Below, in pieces: positions 4,888 through 32,208 of a stretch of 64,000 nucleotides of DNA. This DNA is from a virus (taxonomy: Duplodnaviria; Heunggongvirae; Uroviricota; Caudoviricetes). Both the position numbers and the translations under genes were made by a program. The stretch is from IMG/VR virus record IMGVR_UViG_3300019458_000004, positions 1 through 64,000 of that record, one strand, 5' to 3'. Below the pieces are notes generated by a model. That model worked only from the letters and a program-made list of their open reading frames with translations, was not told where the DNA came from and made no database searches. Position 1 is the first letter of the stretch. Every line of letters begins with the position of its first letter.

Positions 4888-5090
4888 TACTTTCCCTTAA
4901 TTTGCTGATCGTACCAATTCGGATAAGTCTTTATAATTTCACCCCGCACAATACAATCAACCCAATCATCTGGATACTTACCCGCATTTAACCTTTCATG
5001 ACAATTTGCCCAAGCAATTGCTGCTTTCTTATTCTTAAATTGTTTAACTTTTGGCGAGGCATTTTCACTATAAAAAACAATATATCCCAT
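4887..5090 (-). CDS. hypothetical protein
   Basis: ORF 4887..5165 trimmed to Met26 (MGYIVFY). This gives a TAATG overlap with the upstream gene instead of a 76-nt overlap. Confidence 0.4.
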   Translation of the reverse strand: MGYIVFYSENASPKVKQFKNKKAAIAWANCHERLNAGKYPDDWVDCIVRGEIIKTYPNWYDQQIKGK

Positions 5091-5365
5091 TATTCTTCCT
5101 TCTTTTCTAAGGTAACGCCTTTTTTCGTTCCTTGCATTTTGCGGCCAAGATATGCGCCTAAACAAATCATAAACAAATAATTGGCTTGTGTCAAGTCCAC
5201 GTCACCTAAAAAGTTAGAAACTTTGCCTAATTGGCCTAAAAAAGCTGTATTAAAAGCAATGAACGTCATTGTTCCGGTAAAGGTTGGTTTTCCATCAATA
5301 CGAATCATTGGGAGCGGAACCCCTGCCTCATTTAATCTATTAATAAGTTCTTTAATTTTTTCCAT
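5090..5365 (-). CDS. hypothetical protein with a hydrophobic segment
   Basis: 91-aa ORF; hydrophobic stretch YLFMICLGAYLG. Confidence 0.4.
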   Translation of the reverse strand: MEKIKELINRLNEAGVPLPMIRIDGKPTFTGTMTFIAFNTAFLGQLGKVSNFLGDVDLTQANYLFMICLGAYLGRKMQGTKKGVTLEKKEE

Positions 5366-5697
5366 TATTCAACTTTCTCTGAAATAATCTTAACAATTTC
5401 TTCGGCATTTTGACAAACATAAGTCTTGCTATCCTTAACTACAATAAAACTGTTTTCCGCTTGTTCAACTGACACCCAAGGACGGGGTTGATAGTAAGTT
5501 GGATACAAACTTGGATACAAACTTGGATACAAACTTGGATACAAACTTGGATAATTGTCGTATGACCAACAAGCTGTGGTCACGCTAGAATTCACAATTC
5601 CATTAGCACGACCAATCGTTAGCGGACTAACGCCGCTATTAGTATTAATAAGTAATGGTTGTGGGAGGTTATTTGGATCAGATTCAATAACATTCAT
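5365..5697 (-). CDS. hypothetical protein with (YPSL)n repeat
   Basis: ORF 5365..5829 trimmed to Met45. Encodes YPSLYPSLYPSLYPSLYP from the 12-bp tandem DNA repeat ggatacaaactt x4.5 at about 5495-5550. Confidence 0.4.
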   Translation of the reverse strand: MNVIESDPNNLPQPLLINTNSGVSPLTIGRANGIVNSSVTTACWSYDNYPSLYPSLYPSLYPSLYPTYYQPRPWVSVEQAENSFIVVKDSKTYVCQNAEEIVKIISEKVE

Positions 5698-26654: not shown

Positions 26655-26662
26655 TTTAAAAC

Positions 26663-26736
26663 CTGCGGGAACAGGGATTGAACCTGTCATAAGCTCATTA
26701 ACAGTGAGTTGTGTCCACCTTGTTCACCTTCCCGCA
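26663..26736 (-). tRNA. tRNA-Asn (anticodon GUU), no encoded CCA
   Basis: Hand-folded cloverleaf: acceptor TGCGGGA/TCCCGCA (7/7), D-arm GTG-AACAAGGTGGA-CAC, anticodon loop CUGUUAA, T-arm ACAGG-TTCAATC-CCTGT, discriminator G. Confidence 0.8.
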
Positions 26737-26743
26737 AAACTTT

Positions 26744-28364: not shown

Positions 28365-28672
28365 TATTCAGCCTTTGAAATAAAATTTAAATCGATATAC
28401 TGATCCAACTGTTCCCGCATTTCATATTCAGCATCGGTCATAGATCCAGATTGAACTTGCAATTCAGGAGTTCCAACATCCCCCGTTAAGGGGTTATATT
28501 GAATCTTTACAATAACATTCTGTCCATTTGGGAGCTTAGACAAACCGAACGCGGTATCCGTTAAAGCTCCAAGATTAACAGGGTTATAATCAGCGTTGGG
28601 ATCTGGTTTTCTAGGGCGTCCTGCTTTTTTCTCGCTCATCTTTCTCCTAAACAAATTTATCATATCACCCAA
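28364..28672 (-). CDS. hypothetical protein
   Basis: 102-aa ORF. Confidence 0.4.
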   Translation of the reverse strand: MGDMINLFRRKMSEKKAGRPRKPDPNADYNPVNLGALTDTAFGLSKLPNGQNVIVKIQYNPLTGDVGTPELQVQSGSMTDAEYEMREQLDQYIDLNFISKAE

Positions 28673-29385
28673 TTCTTTTCTTGTAAAGCTTGAATTGCTA
28701 TTGGGCAGATATTTTCTTTAATAACTTCGTCTAACATCTTTTTAGCAACTTCTCTAATTTCAGGTTGCGCGTGGTCTGAATTTCTGAGCTTTTGAAAATT
28801 CGCAAAAGAACGTAAATTCATAATCGTTGTTCGTTCCGTCATTCCAGCCGTTGGAAGTTGGCCCCTTAAAATTTCCCGGCATCTTTTGTATTCCTGATTA
28901 GTAATTTCTCCTTGTTTTTCATAATGCTTTAATTTATCAATGCTTAATTTATAATTGTTTGTCGCTATTTCACAGGATTCATAATACGCCTCAAAAATAT
29001 TCCACTCAGGATTAGGGGATTTTGGGGTTGGGAAGATATTAGGCAGTTTATCAACTTTTTGAATAATATCATCAATATCGTCGGGAAGTTCATAGTAATC
29101 TGTGGGCATGGTCCTATATCTTCCGGAAAGTCCTGAGTGGCTTGCTATTCTATGTGTCATGATTTGACGGTCGGTAAAAATAGGAATTCGCATCCAAAAA
29201 CGAAATACAACTGATTCAAAAGGGGTGGAATGTCCATCCTTTGCTAAACGTTTAACAAGATCGGCTATTTGTTCTTCTGTTTTTGTCTCACGCTTTGATT
29301 TATCGAAGCTAGAAGTCCAAGCAGAATTTGCAACACTTTTATCGTTTCCCATTGATTCTTGAAGTTCTACAAGAATTTGATTCAT
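28660..29385 (-). CDS. thyX: flavin-dependent thymidylate synthase ThyX
   Basis: FESVVFRFWMRIPIFTDRQIMTHRIASHSGLSGRY matches the ThyX core with an (R/T)HRx7S-type motif. Start moved to Met20, with GAGGA RBS, so it clears the upstream RNA elements. Confidence 0.6.
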   Translation of the reverse strand: MNQILVELQESMGNDKSVANSAWTSSFDKSKRETKTEEQIADLVKRLAKDGHSTPFESVVFRFWMRIPIFTDRQIMTHRIASHSGLSGRYRTMPTDYYELPDDIDDIIQKVDKLPNIFPTPKSPNPEWNIFEAYYESCEIATNNYKLSIDKLKHYEKQGEITNQEYKRCREILRGQLPTAGMTERTTIMNLRSFANFQKLRNSDHAQPEIREVAKKMLDEVIKENICPIAIQALQEKNWVI

Positions 29386-29414
29386 AAAAATCCTCGGATA
29401 AAAAACGCCAAACG

Positions 29415-29484
29415 GATTAAACGAGAAGAGTCGAACTTCCATCTCTTGAAGTTAATCAAGCGCTTACCAACTAAGCTACGTCTC
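29415..29484 (-). ncRNA. tRNA-like element with non-canonical 6-nt anticodon loop (possible second Y-RNA/tRNA mimic or degenerate tRNA)
   Basis: Acceptor TGAGACG/CGTTTAA (one mismatch, one GU), D-arm GCTT-AGTTGGT-AAGC, stem CTTGA/TCAAG enclosing the 6-nt loop TTAACT, T-arm GGAAG-TTCGACT-CTTCT. Followed by GGCGUUUUUU. Confidence 0.4.
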
Positions 29485-29527
29485 ATACAGGTTGAGATAA
29501 CCGTTCAACTTTCGACCCGAATTTTAA

Positions 29528-29672
29528 AAATTTTCTGGATAAAAGGCGTCATGGGAAACCCCTTTCGGGAATGATTTGCTCTACCAACTGAGCTACAATC
29601 ATCTTTCGATGATTGACGGGATTCGAACCCGCGACCCAATCTCCATATAACCCATTAACTACGACCCAGAAA
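29528..29672 (-). ncRNA. Y-RNA-like ncRNA (YrlA-type) with permuted tRNA-like module, immediately downstream of the Ro60 orthologue
   Basis: On the minus strand: T-arm GCGGG-TTCGAAT-CCCGT, helix CAATCATC-GAAA-GATGATTG (acceptor-like stem closed by a GNRA tetraloop), D-arm GCTC-AGTTGGTA-GAGC, possible terminal stem UUUCUGG/CCAGAAA, then a U-run. The 5' end overlaps the last codons of the vWA ORF. Confidence 0.45.
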
Positions 29673-31218
29673 TAAACCTATTAATAACCTCAGTAACCGT
29701 AGAATCAAATCCCACAATTCGAAGAACGTTCTTATCGTTCATTTCAAAGTTTGAATATCCCCCAGCAACCATACCAACCTCAATAACCTTTACATCAAGA
29801 TTAATTTTACGATACAAAGCCAATTCTTGTACTGAGTGTGAATTACCAGCCCAAGTCTCGTTATCCGTTAGAATAACAATCACATCATACTTATTCTTAG
29901 TATGAAGAGCATACTTAATAGCTAGAGAACAGTCAGTTCCACCACCATTTGGCGTTCCACGAAGAATTTCATCAAGAGAATGCCTTCGACCAATTTGAGG
30001 CACCATAACCTTGGTATCAAACCAAATAAGCTCTGCATTAGCTTCAGAACGCATAATAGCCATTGAAAGAGCAGCCGATACATCCTTCGGAGTAAGTCTA
30101 GATTTATTAATCGTAGCCGAACTCATGCTGCCCGAAACGTCCACCGCCAAGAGAATACTCTTTCAAGTCGGCACAAGCACTTCTAAAGCCGCGTAATATG
30201 CGTTATTTAGGGCGTCATTGATGTTTTGATTGGGCGTCCACATCTTATTACCCAAATCGCCATGACCGCTGCTATAAACGCGTAGAGCATTTAATAGGGT
30301 CACAGAATGAACTTTAGATTTCTTAATGTTTTCAGCACTTAGCTTATTAACAATAGCCTTAGTCGTTTCACTGTTTCCAACCGTCATTCCGTTGCTAGCA
30401 AAACGGTTAAGATTACGAAGAAGAGCAAAAACTGGCATATTAACCAACAATGCATCAAGAATAGCCGGGGTATTCAATTGTTCATTAGGAATCATTTTCC
30501 AGGTCAAACGATATTCCTTAATGAATTCGGCAAGATCCTTGCCTTCCATCATTTGAGCTTTTTCAAAGGCAGCTAGAAGGTTATCTTCCGGAGCCGTTCC
30601 TTCTTCTTGAGTTAGATACTGGAAAATGTAATTATGTTCCGCCGAAGAAGCATGAGAAAGACGAAGAACGTCACGATGCTGAAAACCTTCACGATTTCGG
30701 TACTTTACAACTTGATACTCAACGTCCTTTGGCGTTTTAAGAGTATACCATTTAGAAACAGCAGTTCGAAGACCGCGTGACCAGCCACGAAGATTTTGCA
30801 CATTCGCTAGAAACATGAAAAGCTGAGTAGCGGTATTAAGAACACCAGGCATAGGAATTGCCGCATAAACCGCCTTTTTAACTTCCGCAGTTCCATGGGC
30901 AGCCAAAAGAGCCAATACAAATACAGAAGGATCAACCTTTGGAGCCTTCTTATTCTTCAAAACGTCAACAACAGTGCTAAGAACCTTAAACCCATCTTCC
31001 TTAATGTAATTAATTACAGCATTAGCATTTTCAACCGTTAAAGTCTGCTTATCAACATAATACGTTCCTTCTTCGGAACCAATAAGAAGAAATCGTTCAA
31101 GAAGTTCTTGATTGGTCACAGCAAAACTATAACCACCAGCATTATTCTTAACCATGGTTTTACCAGGAATAGGTTGTGTTTGATGCGTCTTTGAAATCAT
31201 TTTTGAGTAATTTCCCAT
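29659..31218 (-). CDS. rsr: Ro60/Rsr orthologue (TROVE domain + C-terminal vWA/MIDAS), interrupted by one in-frame TGA (30163-30165)
   Basis: ORF 30163..31218 is TROVE-like. ORF 29659..30150 has vWA MIDAS LAVDVSGSM..TDN. They are in the same frame and separated only by TGA: ..EVLVPT*KSILLAVDVSGSM. Confidence 0.7.
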
Positions 31219-31627: not shown

Positions 31628-32023
31628 TCAAGTATATTTTATATGCGCTAAAAGTTCAGTTAAATCATTAAAAAAGAAATCAAGTGCATTTCGAGCATCT
31701 CTTTGAGTTTTAATTGTTTCATGATTTTCTCGTTTCATACAACGATTAAAACAAGTTTCAAATGATTCATGAAGAACAACTATTCTAGTCTTATATCCGG
31801 CTTCTTTAGCTGGAATAAGGTATCGATTTCTTTGTTCTTTAGAGAAATTCATACGATCAACAATAATCGGTAATTCACTTTTAACCGATTCTAGAAAAAG
31901 CTTTTGATGCCCCTCTTTTCCTTGTAAATCTTGATTAATATAAACGGAATCATTTAATTCGCCTAAAGCTTTCGTACTTTTTCCGCTTCCGGGCGGTCCA
32001 ACGAGTAAAATGAGTTCTTTCAT
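31628..32023 (-). CDS. P-loop kinase (polynucleotide-kinase/AAA_33-like)
   Basis: Trimmed to MKELILLVGPPGSGKST. IIVDRMNFSKEQR motif. ATGA overlap with the upstream gene. Confidence 0.5.
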   Translation of the reverse strand: MKELILLVGPPGSGKSTKALGELNDSVYINQDLQGKEGHQKLFLESVKSELPIIVDRMNFSKEQRNRYLIPAKEAGYKTRIVVLHESFETCFNRCMKRENHETIKTQRDARNALDFFFNDLTELLAHIKYT

Positions 32024-32208
32024 CCGTAAATTCTCCAAAGGATAAAACCAAAACAAAGTAATCCTTTTAAAAATCTCTTTCCTAAAATGGCCCAAACTTT
32101 ATCAGCATGAGTTTTGAAAAGAATTTCATCTGTAGCAATAAATCCTATAATAAATTGAAATAAATAAAATATTCCAACTATTAATATGATCCAGTCAAGT
32201 GGTTTCAT
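32020..32208 (-). CDS. hypothetical small membrane protein
   Basis: Two hydrophobic helices. Confidence 0.35.
   Translation of the reverse strand: MKPLDWIILIVGIFYLFQFIIGFIATDEILFKTHADKVWAILGKRFLKGLLCFGFILWRIYG

What the first reader, a model, noticed from the sequence alone, without database searches (positions are those of the whole stretch)
29415..29484. Near-canonical tRNA-like gene with a 6-nt anticodon loop containing UUAA
Acceptor stem (one mismatch), D-arm and T-arm (GGAAG-UUCGACU-CUUCU) are tRNA-like, but the 5-bp anticodon stem CUUGA/UCAAG encloses only UUAACU. It could be a degenerate tRNA, a tRNA mimic partnering Rsr (YrlB-like), or a non-standard decoder. Given the in-frame UGA next door, it needs to be established whether this RNA is aminoacylated.
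Basis: seen in the sequence. Interest (0 to 1): 0.55.

Follow-up and report, generated by a model that had tools for sequence, protein, structure and literature searches.

The report
tRNA-shaped module of a phage Y RNA
The odd "tRNA with a 6-base anticodon loop" is not a tRNA gene: it is the tRNA-shaped middle of a second small Y RNA encoded just after a phage Ro60/Rsr gene, so it is a protein-binding tRNA mimic, built differently from the Y RNAs described so far.

Summary
The sequence features are real. They lie on the minus strand at 29416-29485: D arm, T arm, and a 5-bp "anticodon" stem closing the 6-nt loop UUAACU. They are not a stand-alone tRNA.

The element sits inside a ~130-nt RNA (29392-29521, minus). 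The ends of that RNA form a Y-RNA stem carrying the Rsr-binding motif GUCGAAAG. It follows rsr and a YrlA-type Y RNA directly.

I found the same architecture in 7 other lineages, including Mycobacterium phage Myrna, where GenBank calls it "tRNA Sup TTA". Across them:
- The "anticodon" stem stays 5 bp and covaries at every position.
- Its loop is 3, 4, 6, 6, 6, 7, 7 or 8 nt. The closest relative has a GAAA tetraloop.
- The 5' "acceptor" strand pairs with an upstream strand to form a closed hairpin (5-7 of 7 pairs everywhere).

It is therefore a tRNA mimic tethered to Rsr, not a decoder. It has no UCA anticodon for the neighbouring in-frame UGA. That UGA is one G>T change from the GGA of the nearest relative.

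The arm order (closed acceptor, D, anticodon arm, T) differs from YrlA, and the RNA fails the Rfam models for both YrlA and Deinococcus Yrn1. I rate it a new variant of a known kind, of moderate interest.

The parts
29392..29521 (-). Whole second Y RNA (~130 nt). Order: Y stem 5' strand, closed acceptor hairpin, D arm, 'anticodon' arm, T arm, linker, Y stem 3' strand.
   Evidence: The unconstrained MFE gives exactly this five-branch fold at -36.8 kcal/mol. Covariance model R1 scores it 96.1 bits, E = 1e-22. The homolog in L002 at 5105-5241 scores 112 bits.
29509..29521 (-). Y-stem lower helix 5' strand (UUCGGGU) plus the conserved motif GUCGAAAG, which matches GNCGAAN0-1G, the proposed Rsr-binding site.
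   Evidence: Sequence. The pattern GGGTCG-N-GGTTAT occurs twice in 64 kb against 0.06 expected, both times just 3' of rsr. The motif definition comes from PMC4201824.
29393..29415 (-). Y-stem 3' strand. CCGUUUGGC...UUUU forms the upper helix. AUCCGAG forms the lower helix.
   Evidence: MFE pairing. Across the family the lower helix is 93.7% paired, and 4 of its 7 pairs change on both sides.
29481..29497 (-). Closed acceptor-like hairpin UCUCA-ACCUGUA-UGAGA. The loop starts ACCU.
   Evidence: Pair probability is 0.99. There are two compensatory changes relative to L002 (UCUUC/GAAGA). The family shows 5-7 of 7 pairs in all 8 members, mean 6.25, against 3.04 in cross-pairing controls.
29462..29476 (-). 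D arm: GCUU-AGUUGGU-AAGC, carrying G18 G19.
   Evidence: The D stem is paired in all members.
29445..29460 (-). 'Anticodon' arm: CUUGA-UUAACU-UCAAG. The 6-nt loop is at 29450-29455.
   Evidence: The helix is 97.8% paired across the family, all 5 pairs change on both sides, and loops run from 3 to 8 nt.
29424..29440 (-). T arm: GGAAG-UUCGACU-CUUCU.
29416..29423 (-). Linker CGUUUAAU between the T arm and the Y stem.
   Evidence: Here it can pair with UGAGACG (5 WC + 1 GU). The equivalent downstream strand pairs poorly in the other lineages (1-3 Watson-Crick pairs of 7 in the canonical register; L002 reaches 4 WC + 1 GU only after a 1-nt shift). CCG, not CCA, follows it.
29535..29669 (-). First Y RNA, YrlA-type (T arm, closed acceptor, D arm). 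Its GGGUCGUAG overlaps the rsr stop codon.
   Evidence: Rfam YrlA scores 38.7 bits, E = 4.7e-6, below the gathering score of 69. The same element follows rsr in L002-L005 and L026.
29659..31218 (-). rsr (Ro60 ortholog: TROVE plus vWA_Ro60), interrupted by an in-frame UGA at 30163-30165.
   Evidence: Translation. Pfam gives TROVE 1.1e-29 and vWA_Ro60 6e-41. Relatives at 74-90% identity are intact. The UGA corresponds to GGA in L002.
28660..29385 (-). thyX, the next gene downstream. It sets the 3' limit of the non-coding cassette.
   Evidence: The 241-aa product with a Thy1 domain is called on the source contig. No promoter-like or terminator-like site lies between rsr and thyX.

Best explanation
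The element is the effector module of a second Y RNA in a phage rsr/Y-RNA cassette, ordered rsr, YrlA-type Y RNA, this RNA, thyX, all on the minus strand.

The ~130-nt RNA closes on itself through a long stem made by its 5' and 3' ends. That stem carries the GNCGAAN0-1G motif that Rsr/Ro60 recognises. From the top of the stem four hairpins emerge in this order: a closed acceptor-like hairpin, a D arm, an anticodon-like arm and a T arm. This amounts to a complete tRNA body, circularly permuted at the T-stem/acceptor-stem junction (between positions 65 and 66), with the CCA end replaced by a loop.

Inferred mechanism, by analogy with Yrn1 and YrlA: Rsr binds the stem, and the tRNA-shaped module is displayed to recruit or occupy a tRNA-recognising protein. 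Candidates are an exoribonuclease such as PNPase, tRNA modification or processing enzymes, or RNase P. The module may also shield the RNA from exonucleases. In this way it would tether and gate Rsr during infection. The RNA is not a decoder; the 6-nt loop is simply a hairpin cap.

Shown here: the anatomy, conservation, covariation and genomic linkage. Inferred: Rsr binding, the tether/gate role, and any processing.
For: (1) Context. The element lies 140 nt downstream of a YrlA-type RNA and about 175 nt downstream of rsr, on the same strand. The only two GGGTCG...GGTTAT motifs in 64 kb are these two.

(2) Fold. The unconstrained MFE gives the Y stem plus four hairpins. The same fold is the MFE in L006, L008, L015 and L022.

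(3) Closest relative. In L002 (Rsr 90% identical) the same RNA has the arm CCUUAG-GAAA-CUAAGG, with compensatory changes in both the anticodon-like stem and the upstream acceptor hairpin.

(4) Family. Eight lineages share the architecture: window, L002, L006, L008, L010, L015, L021, and L022 (phage Myrna, with its close relative L024 counted in the same lineage). Model R1 scores members 96-128 bits. The best non-member (L021 625-792) scores 68 bits, other tRNAs with chance flanks 45-62 bits and YrlA-type RNAs 27-53 bits.

(5) Covariation. 88.7% of cells are paired against 70.9% in shuffles. The covariation score is 0.547 against 0.194, with 0 of 500 shuffles as high. Slid controls give at most 0.214. 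All 5 anticodon-stem pairs and 4 of 7 lower Y-stem pairs change on both sides.

(6) Loop lengths are 3, 4, 6, 6, 6, 7, 7 and 8 nt.

(7) Acceptor pairing. The upstream hairpin gives 5-7 of 7 pairs in all members. The canonical downstream strand gives only 1-3 Watson-Crick pairs outside the window. In the window the pair probabilities are 0.99 against 0.0003. The Rfam tRNA model matches five of the six other members scanned only over positions 5/6-65/66 (L006, like the window, matches end to end).

(8) The Levitt pair covaries: G15:C48 in four lineages, A15:U48 in two.

(9) rsr linkage elsewhere. L006 is immediately 5' of rsr and L021 is 3.4 kb from rsr. Myrna encodes Ro as gp227.

(10) Literature. 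Y RNAs are modular, with an Rsr-binding stem plus an effector module that often mimics tRNA. D. radiodurans Yrn1 is modelled with a 5-bp 'anticodon' stem and a 6-nt loop (PMC4201824; bioRxiv 10.1101/312249).
Against: - No experiment shows a transcript, its ends, or Rsr binding.
- rsr in this genome carries an in-frame UGA, so the partner protein may be truncated and the RNA could be a recent relic.
- In this lineage alone the canonical acceptor pairing is formally possible (5 WC + 1 GU), so a processed tRNA-sized species cannot be excluded.
- The family is small: 8 lineages, and window and L002 are close relatives.
- The model-fitted alignment registers the acceptor hairpin poorly (63% paired). 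The 6.25-of-7 figure comes from my manual register.
- In Myrna, L010 and L015 the RNA lies in tRNA arrays rather than next to rsr.
Confidence: 0.8

Rival explanations
1. Nicked, CCA-ended tRNA-like Y RNA. RNase P cuts 5' of the first nucleotide of the closed acceptor hairpin's 3' strand. The upstream piece is trimmed and given CCA, or already encodes it. The result is a two-piece tRNA mimic held together by the Y stem, which might even be aminoacylated. This refines the best explanation rather than replacing it.
For: M. smegmatis YrlA, which has a 7-bp closed acceptor stem, is cleaved by RNase P and receives CCA in vivo (PMC4201824). In this family the acceptor-hairpin loop begins with N-CCA in three lineages: L008 ACCA, L010 GCCA, Myrna GCCA. 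In the window it begins ACCU. L006 and Myrna have full 7-bp hairpins. Three members lie in tRNA arrays, where RNase P acts.
Against: The window's hairpin has only 5 contiguous pairs, and short acceptor stems are described as poor RNase P substrates. L002, L006, L015 and L021 have no CCA in the loop. No identity element such as G3:U70 is present. The sample is small. Nothing was tested experimentally.
Confidence: 0.15
2. Degenerate or pseudo-tRNA. A phage tRNA gene lost one base of its anticodon loop and is decaying. The flanking complementarity is incidental.
For: The tRNA model scores 42.6 bits and ARAGORN detects the element. The D loop is short (7 nt), the variable region has 4 nt, there is a G.A mismatch, and CCG rather than CCA follows. 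A genuine tRNA-Asn lies 2.7 kb away.
Against: The nearest relative keeps both stems through compensatory changes and carries a GAAA tetraloop, not a 7-nt loop. The Y-stem flanks covary across 8 lineages. The same architecture recurs next to rsr in unrelated phages. Six-nt loops occur independently in L006 and Myrna.
Confidence: 0.05
3. Non-standard decoder or suppressor. The RNA is charged and reads codons, for example doublet or frameshift decoding, or UAA/UGA suppression that rescues the interrupted rsr.
For: The loop contains UUA/UAA. The Myrna homolog is annotated 'tRNA Sup TTA'. An in-frame UGA lies in rsr.
Against: No UCA is available for UGA. Loop length and sequence are not conserved, ranging from 3 to 8 nt. 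There is no conserved acceptor stem or CCA. UGA is used as the stop of 28 of 85 long minus-strand ORFs, and treating it as sense gives no specific gain. The UGA is one G>T change from the GGA of L002, and other relatives have Asn there.
Confidence: 0.02
4. Decoy for host tRNA-targeting factors. The exposed anticodon-like arm and tRNA body would soak up anticodon nucleases or other tRNA-directed defence or modification enzymes, with or without Rsr.
For: Unlike YrlA, this architecture leaves an anticodon-like arm free. RNA-repair-type genes flank rsr in relatives: PNKP and RNA ligase in L002, PNKP in L004. The window has an AAA_33 kinase beside rsr.
Against: Loop sequences and lengths vary too much to mimic one particular tRNA substrate. 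There is no experimental link. The context evidence is circumstantial.
Confidence: 0.08

Closest known systems
YrlA-type bacterial and phage Y RNAs (Rfam RF02553; Chen et al. 2014, PMC4201824; Wang et al. 2018, bioRxiv 10.1101/312249)
   Same: Both are encoded beside rsr on the same strand. Both have a long terminal stem with the GNCGAAN0-1G motif, an internal module with tRNA-like D and T arms, and a closed (loop-capped) acceptor stem. The Levitt pair covaries in both. A YrlA-type RNA sits in tandem with this RNA in the window, L006, L008 and Myrna.
   Different: YrlA runs T arm, closed acceptor, D arm. The Rsr-binding stem takes the place of the anticodon stem, so YrlA has no anticodon arm. 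Here the order is closed acceptor, D, anticodon-like arm, T, and the Y stem enters at the T/acceptor junction. The YrlA model gives no hit on 29392-29521 even at E up to 10.
Deinococcus radiodurans Yrn1 (Rfam RF01053)
   Same: Yrn1 is the only described Y RNA whose tRNA-like features run in the D-like, 'anticodon arm', T order. The authors model that arm with a 5-bp stem and a 6-nt loop, as here. It tethers Rsr to PNPase.
   Different: Yrn1 has no full D arm and no variable region. RF01053 does not hit the window element, although it scores 163 bits on a Deinococcus control locus. My model R1 gives that Yrn1 only 12.6 bits. The 2014 authors found no Yrn1 orthologs by BLAST.
Mycobacterium smegmatis YrlA (RNase P-cleaved, CCA-added Y RNA)
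   Same: It has a closed acceptor stem of tRNA length that can be opened by RNase P to give a CCA end. Several members of the present family have 7-bp hairpins and N-CCA at the start of the loop.
   Different: The arm order differs. Processing of the present RNA is untested, and the window copy has only a 5-bp hairpin.
Circularly permuted tRNA genes (Cyanidioschyzon merolae) and two-piece tmRNA from permuted ssrA genes (from my own knowledge; Soma et al. 2007 is cited)
   Same: A tRNA body is encoded in permuted order, with the acceptor 3' strand upstream of the 5' strand.
   Different: Those RNAs are processed into functional, chargeable molecules. Here the permutation point is occupied by an Rsr-binding stem, and the anticodon loop is not conserved.
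Canonical tRNA (Rfam RF00005)
   Same: D arm, T arm, 5-bp anticodon stem, U8, A14, G18G19 and the T-loop UUCGA. The score is above the Rfam gathering threshold.
   Different: The acceptor stem is not conserved and no CCA follows. The element is embedded in a larger structured RNA.

Membership tests
Rsr-associated Y RNA (general class) | Encoded close to rsr/Ro60 and on the same strand | tested here: met
   The RNA lies at 29392-29521 (-). rsr lies at 29659-31218 (-), with one YrlA-type RNA between them.
Rsr-associated Y RNA (general class) | Long stem formed by pairing of the 5' and 3' ends | tested here: met
   The MFE has a 7-bp lower helix and a ~13-bp upper helix. The lower helix is 93.7% paired across 9 sequences, and 4 of 7 pairs change on both sides.
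Rsr-associated Y RNA (general class) | GNCGAAN0-1G motif near the 5' end (proposed Rsr contact) | tested here: met
   GUCGAAAG lies at 29509-29516. The motif is defined in PMC4201824. In the other members the motif is exact in L010 and deviates elsewhere: GUCGCU/GUCGCA/GUCGUG in L002, L006, L008 and L015, and GCCGUG/GCCGAU in L021 and Myrna.
Rsr-associated Y RNA (general class) | Bound and stabilised by Rsr in vivo | not testable with these tools
   This needs Rsr immunoprecipitation or a northern blot. Note also that rsr here carries an in-frame UGA.
YrlA (RF02553) | Module order T arm, closed acceptor stem, D arm, with the Y stem replacing the anticodon stem | tested here: not met
   The order here is closed acceptor, D, anticodon-like arm, T. 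The YrlA architecture is described.
YrlA (RF02553) | Match to the Rfam covariance model | tested here: not met
   There is no RF02553 hit on 29392-29521 at E up to 10. The neighbouring RNA at 29548-29655 scores 38.7 bits.
Deinococcus Yrn1 (RF01053) | Match to the Rfam covariance model | tested here: not met
   No hit in the window. The positive control L030 at 345-470 scores 163.4 bits.
Deinococcus Yrn1 (RF01053) | D-like then 'anticodon arm' (5-bp stem, 6-nt loop) then T arm orientation relative to the 5' end | tested here: met
   The window has D, then CUUGA-UUAACU-UCAAG, then T. The Yrn1 description is in PMC4201824.
tRNA (RF00005) | Covariance-model score above the gathering threshold | tested here: met
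   42.6 bits against 29.
tRNA (RF00005) | 7-nt anticodon loop with U33, a 3-nt anticodon and a purine at 37 | tested here: not met
   The loop is UUAACU, 6 nt. Homologs have loops of 3-8 nt.
tRNA (RF00005) | Acceptor stem formed by the 5' end and the strand after the T arm, followed by a discriminator and CCA (encoded or added) | tested here: not met
   The pairing is possible only in this lineage (5 WC + 1 GU). Its predicted probability is 0.0003, and CCG follows. In other members the downstream strand gives 1-3 Watson-Crick pairs of 7. The tRNA model matches five of the six other members scanned only over positions 5/6-65/66; L006 matches end to end.
tRNA (RF00005) | Aminoacylation and use in translation | not testable with these tools
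   This needs an acid-gel northern blot or charged-tRNA sequencing.

The most novel reading that the evidence does not exclude
This is the founding example of an unrecognised subfamily of Y RNAs that carry a complete four-arm tRNA body, permuted at the T/acceptor junction. RNase P would open the closed acceptor hairpin, whose loop starts with N-CCA in several lineages. That would yield a two-piece, CCA-ended and possibly aminoacylated tRNA mimic that stays tethered to Rsr, linking the phage Ro60 particle to the tRNA charging or processing machinery. Genome annotation currently mislabels such RNAs as suppressor tRNAs.
Probability: 0.08. Interest if true: 0.8.

Novelty: new variant of a known kind. 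Interest (0 to 1): 0.42.

Why it matters
Y RNAs that mimic tRNA are known, but only in the YrlA layout, where Rsr occupies the anticodon end, and in the partial mimic Yrn1. This RNA has a second, independent way of wiring a full tRNA body to the Ro60-binding stem, and it leaves the anticodon arm free. That implies the tRNA shape itself is what selection keeps, and that different faces of it can be presented.

The two layouts occur in tandem in several phages. This gives an experimental handle on what the tRNA module binds.

There is also a practical consequence. tRNA finders report these elements as odd or suppressor tRNAs: ARAGORN calls them 'tRNA-???', and GenBank annotates the one in phage Myrna as 'tRNA Sup TTA'. 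Such calls can mislead inferences about phage recoding or stop-codon suppression. Here they would have wrongly linked the RNA to the in-frame UGA in rsr.

Tried and rejected
Searches that found nothing:
- DNA similarity of the locus to 50,697 phage records, with blastn on 2.2 kb and megablast on 24 kb.
- Rsr peptide patterns and the window's own D-arm/anticodon-arm pattern in IMG/VR. Relatives had to be reached through the protein database.

Pattern scans also returned false positives: ordinary tRNAs with chance upstream matches (L007, L014, L017-L020, L023) and coding sequence (L011-L013, L028). I excluded these by reading them and by R1 score.

Alignment problems:
- MAFFT could not register the acceptor hairpin, because its distance from GGUUA varies by up to 3 nt.
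- As a result the model-fitted alignment shows only 63% pairing in that helix, and I relied on a manual register with a cross-pairing control.

Hypotheses considered and rejected:
- A UGA-to-Gly or UGA-to-Trp genetic code. UGA ends 28 of 85 long minus-strand ORFs, and only rsr merges notably when UGA is read as sense.
- A UGA suppressor. There is no UCA in or near the loop.
- A single-base deletion or assembly error in a normal loop. The nearest relative has a tetraloop, and independent lineages have 6-nt loops.
- An alternative register placing CUUCAAG as a 7-nt loop with a UCA anticodon. The flanking bases (AUUAA and AGAUG) do not pair.

Other dead ends:
- Six further Ro loci of isolated phages (Cashline, FuzzBuster, Comrade, Angela, Atu_ph07, Sixama) contain no further member within 4 kb, only YrlA-type RNAs and ordinary tRNAs.
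- The supplements of Chen et al. 2014 and two reviews (PMC10870794, PMC6047535) are not held. I therefore could not check whether this layout appears in their supplementary figures.
Full report
**1. The observation**

The described features are present, on the minus strand.
- ARAGORN reports a 'tRNA-???' with a two-base anticodon at 29414-29485.
- The Rfam tRNA model scores 42.6 bits (gathering score 29, E = 1.1e-5 for the window) at 29416-29485.
- The RNA reads UGAGACG UA GCUU-AGUUGGU-AAGC G CUUGA-UUAACU-UCAAG AGAU GGAAG-UUCGACU-CUUCU CGUUUAA U.

UGAGACG can pair with CGUUUAA through 5 Watson-Crick pairs, one G-U and one G.A. The sequence after the putative discriminator is CCG, not CCA.

**2. 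Surroundings**

Everything here is on the minus strand.
- Upstream lies a Ro60 ortholog, rsr. Pfam gives TROVE 1.1e-29 and vWA_Ro60 6e-41. The gene is split by one in-frame UGA at 30163-30165.
- Its stop codon is embedded in GGGUCGUAG, the 5' end of a YrlA-type Y RNA (29535-29669; Rfam YrlA 38.7 bits, E = 4.7e-6, below the gathering score).
- Next comes the element in question, then thyX starting at 29385.
- No promoter-like or terminator-like site separates these features.
- The Y-RNA 5' signature GGGTCG-N-GGTTAT occurs exactly twice in the 64 kb against 0.06 expected. One copy heads the YrlA-type RNA. The other lies 12 nt upstream of the 'tRNA'.

**3. The element is embedded in a larger RNA**

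The stretch 29392-29521 folds without constraints into a terminal stem enclosing four hairpins (-36.8 kcal/mol).
- The lower helix is UUCGGGU/AUCCGAG.
- A bulge region carries GUCGAAAG.
- The upper helix is GAAAGUUGAACGG/CCGUUUGGC..UUUU.
- The four hairpins are UCUCA-ACCUGUA-UGAGA, the D arm, the 'anticodon' arm and the T arm.

GUCGAAAG matches GNCGAAN0-1G. Chen et al. identified this motif as common to bacterial Y RNAs and as overlapping the Rsr-binding site (PMC4201824).

Forcing the canonical acceptor instead costs 7 kcal/mol (-29.7). Predicted pair probabilities are 0.99 for the upstream hairpin and 0.0003 for the canonical acceptor.

**4. Relatives**

The window has no DNA-level relative among deposited phages. 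Rsr homologs at 74-90% identity exist on metagenomic contigs, and all of them are intact.

The closest, L002 (90%), has four Y-RNA-like modules after rsr. The last one, just before thyX, is the homolog of our RNA.
- The Y-stem strands are the same.
- The acceptor hairpin is UCUUC-AACAUAUC-GAAGA, with two compensatory changes relative to UCUCA/UGAGA.
- The D arm is the same.
- The 'anticodon' arm is CCUUAG-GAAA-CUAAGG, a GNRA-capped helix with two compensatory changes.

The nearest relative has neither a normal 7-nt loop nor the same loop. Other relatives (L003, L004, L005, L026) have a YrlA-type RNA, a minimal Y RNA, or nothing at this position. The inner module is therefore exchangeable while the Y-stem frame persists.

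**5. A wider family**

I scanned public collections for 'Y-stem 5' motif followed within ~35 nt by a D arm'. This found the same architecture in:
- IMG/VR contigs L006 and L021;
- Mycobacterium phage Myrna (L022) and its close relative L024, which I count as one lineage;
- JGI metagenome contigs L008 and L010;
- Chloroflexia MAGs L015 and L016.

Linkage to rsr and to other RNAs:
- L006 lies immediately 5' of an rsr gene, and L021 lies 3.4 kb from one.
- Myrna encodes Ro as gp227.
- A YrlA-type RNA lies in tandem in the window, L006, L008 and Myrna.

A covariance model built from nine sequences (R1) scores members 96-128 bits. The best non-member (L021 625-792, a minimal Y RNA followed by a tRNA) scores 68 bits, other ordinary tRNAs with chance flanks 45-62 bits, YrlA-type RNAs 27-53 bits, and a Deinococcus Yrn1 12.6 bits.

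Six further Ro loci of isolated phages hold no additional member. The type is recurrent but uncommon.

**6. Structure support**

On the model-fitted alignment:
- 88.7% of cells are paired, against 70.9% in shuffles.
- The covariation score is 0.547 against 0.194, with 0 of 500 shuffles as high.
- Sliding the 3' partners by 1-3 columns drops pairing to 35-50% and covariation to at most 0.214.
- All five 'anticodon'-stem pairs and four of seven lower Y-stem pairs change on both sides.

The acceptor hairpin is poorly registered by MAFFT and Infernal, because its distance from GGUUA varies. That helix shows 63% pairing. In a manual register every member has 5-7 of 7 pairs (mean 6.25), against 3.04 when strands are cross-paired between members, and every position shows several pair types.

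By contrast, the strand after the T arm gives only 1-3 Watson-Crick pairs in the canonical register outside the window. The Rfam tRNA model matches five of the six other members scanned only over positions 5/6-65/66, that is, without an acceptor stem; L006, like the window, matches end to end.

The Levitt pair covaries: G15:C48 in four lineages and A15:U48 in two. This argues for a tRNA-like tertiary fold, as was reported for YrlA.

'Anticodon' loops are UUAACU, GAAA, UUAUAA, UUUGUAA, CGUAAGAA, UUU, UGCAUAG and CUUUAA, that is 3 to 8 nt.

**7. What it is**

It is a Y RNA whose effector module is a complete tRNA body in the order closed acceptor hairpin, D arm, anticodon-like arm, variable region, T arm. 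Topologically this is a tRNA circularly permuted between positions 65 and 66. The Rsr-binding stem is attached at that break, and the CCA end is replaced by a loop.

The 6-nt loop is a hairpin cap under no decoding constraint. tRNA finders detect the element because D, anticodon arm, variable region and T arm are contiguous in native order. In the window lineage the linker CGUUUAA also happens to complement the hairpin strand.

**8. How it probably works**

This section is inference from established Y-RNA biology. Rsr binds the terminal stem. The internal module tethers Rsr to another protein, as Yrn1 does with PNPase, and gates access to the Rsr ring. tRNA-like modules are substrates for tRNA enzymes such as TruB, DusA and RNase P.

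The present layout differs from YrlA in leaving the anticodon-like arm free. It may therefore present a different face of the tRNA shape.

The acceptor-hairpin loop begins with N-CCA in L008, L010 and Myrna, and with ACCU in the window. L006 and Myrna have 7-bp hairpins. [quoted passage not shown] I give that about 15%.

Decoding is very unlikely, at about 2%.

**9. The neighbouring UGA**

The codon is TGA where L002 has GGA (Gly). L003, L004 and L005 have AAC or AAT (Asn). It is therefore a single G>T change at a non-invariant position.
- The truncated 351-aa product is on record from three sources.
- UGA is a normal stop elsewhere in the window: 28 of 85 long minus-strand ORFs.
- The RNA has no UCA.

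I see no functional link between the two. Rsr may be split, read through at low level, or recently inactivated in this phage. The last possibility is the main caveat for function here.

**10. Comparison with known families and novelty**

This is a Y RNA by position, terminal stem, motif and modularity. Rsr binding is untested.

It is not a YrlA: the arm order is wrong and the RF02553 model gives no hit. It is not a Yrn1 by the RF01053 model, which scores 163 bits on a Deinococcus control. It does share with Yrn1 the D, anticodon-arm, T orientation and the 5-bp stem with a 6-nt loop that Chen et al. remarked on.

Chen et al. found no Yrn1 orthologs by BLAST. My full-text searches found no description of this layout.

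GenBank annotates the Myrna copy as 'tRNA-OTHER / tRNA Sup TTA'. ARAGORN calls it 'tRNA-???' and calls the copy in L024, a close relative of Myrna, 'tRNA-Ser'.

**Verdict.** The element is a new variant of a known kind. It is of moderate interest to RNA biologists and useful as a warning for annotation. It is not evidence of recoding.

Noticed in passing
window 30163-30165 (-), inside rsr 29659-31218: There is a single in-frame UGA in the Ro60 ortholog. The nearest relative has GGA (Gly) there and three others have AAY (Asn). The truncated 351-aa product is on record in three sources. UGA is otherwise a normal stop in the window.
   Followed up: yes
window 29535-29669 (-): A YrlA-type Y RNA (T arm, closed acceptor, D arm) has a 5' motif GGGUCGUAG that contains the rsr stop codon. 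This overlap is conserved in L002, L004, L005 and L026.
   Followed up: partly
L025 2557-2628 = Mycobacterium phage Myrna NC_011273.1 94710-94781: This feature is annotated 'tRNA-OTHER, tRNA Sup TTA' inside the tRNA array. It has the same Y-stem plus four-arm architecture (R1 106.9 bits) with a 6-nt loop CUUUAA, so the suppressor annotation is probably wrong. Myrna's Ro gene (gp227) lies 36 kb away.
   Followed up: yes
L002 4938-5038 and L003 4786-4880: A third kind of Y-RNA-like module has the same GGGUCG...GGUUAU / UUAUCC frame. It encloses a hairpin and a T-arm-like GGGGUAUCGAAUCCCC, with no D arm. L005 ~2270-2345 has a minimal Y RNA with no tRNA-like part.
   Followed up: no
L002 ~5245-5370, L003 ~5025-5130, L005 ~2345-2440: A conserved, apparently structured ~100-nt leader lies between the last Y RNA and the next ORF (thyX in L002). 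It is shared between L002 and L003 (…GACGAUUAAAGCG…CGCAAAAGGGGUACCCGAUUU-AUG). It gives no Rfam hit at E up to 0.01 and is absent from the window. It may be a cis-regulatory RNA. L002 4840-4935 and L003 4557-4640 also look structured.
   Followed up: no
L021 2125-2197 (-) (IMG/VR 3300045996_002451, 211 kb): This tRNA-like gene has a normal 8-bp acceptor stem, D arm and T arm. Its anticodon arm is capped by a UACG tetraloop (ARAGORN 'tRNA-???', anticodon 'ac'). It is another non-decoding tRNA mimic, lying between a family member and rsr.
   Followed up: no
L031 ~400-524 (Deinococcus cavernae, upstream of rsr): A tRNA-like RNA has a true acceptor stem (GGAACGG/CCGUUCC followed by ACCA), a D arm and a T arm. 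Its anticodon region is replaced by an insert carrying the Y motif GGGCCGAAUGCGAAAGGUUAUC. This is a third way of joining a tRNA body to a Y-RNA motif.
   Followed up: no
L030 1-1170 (Deinococcus, upstream of rsr): At least five GGGCCGA...GGUUA modules lie in tandem upstream of rsr. They include Yrn1 (345-470; RF01053 163 bits) and a CCA-ended tRNA-like element at 264-335.
   Followed up: no
L008, L010, L022 acceptor-hairpin loops; window 29486-29492: The loop of the closed acceptor hairpin starts with N-CCA in three lineages (ACCA, GCCA, GCCA) and with ACCU in the window. This resembles a remnant or mimic of a tRNA 3' end. The sample is small.
   Followed up: partly
window 26662-26737 (-): This is a genuine tRNA-Asn (GUU). 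A homologous tRNA-Asn occupies the same relative position in L004.
   Followed up: no
window 31628-32095 (-); L002 1-1858; L004 1284-2147: RNA-repair-type genes accompany rsr. The window has an AAA_33 P-loop kinase. Relatives have PNKP (kinase-phosphatase) and an RNA ligase. This echoes the rsr-rtcB association in bacteria.
   Followed up: partly
window 28660-29442 (-): The mechanical ORF list extends thyX upstream to an ATG at 29442, inside the tRNA-like T arm. The start called on the source contig is the ATG at 29385, preceded by GAGGA.
   Followed up: yes
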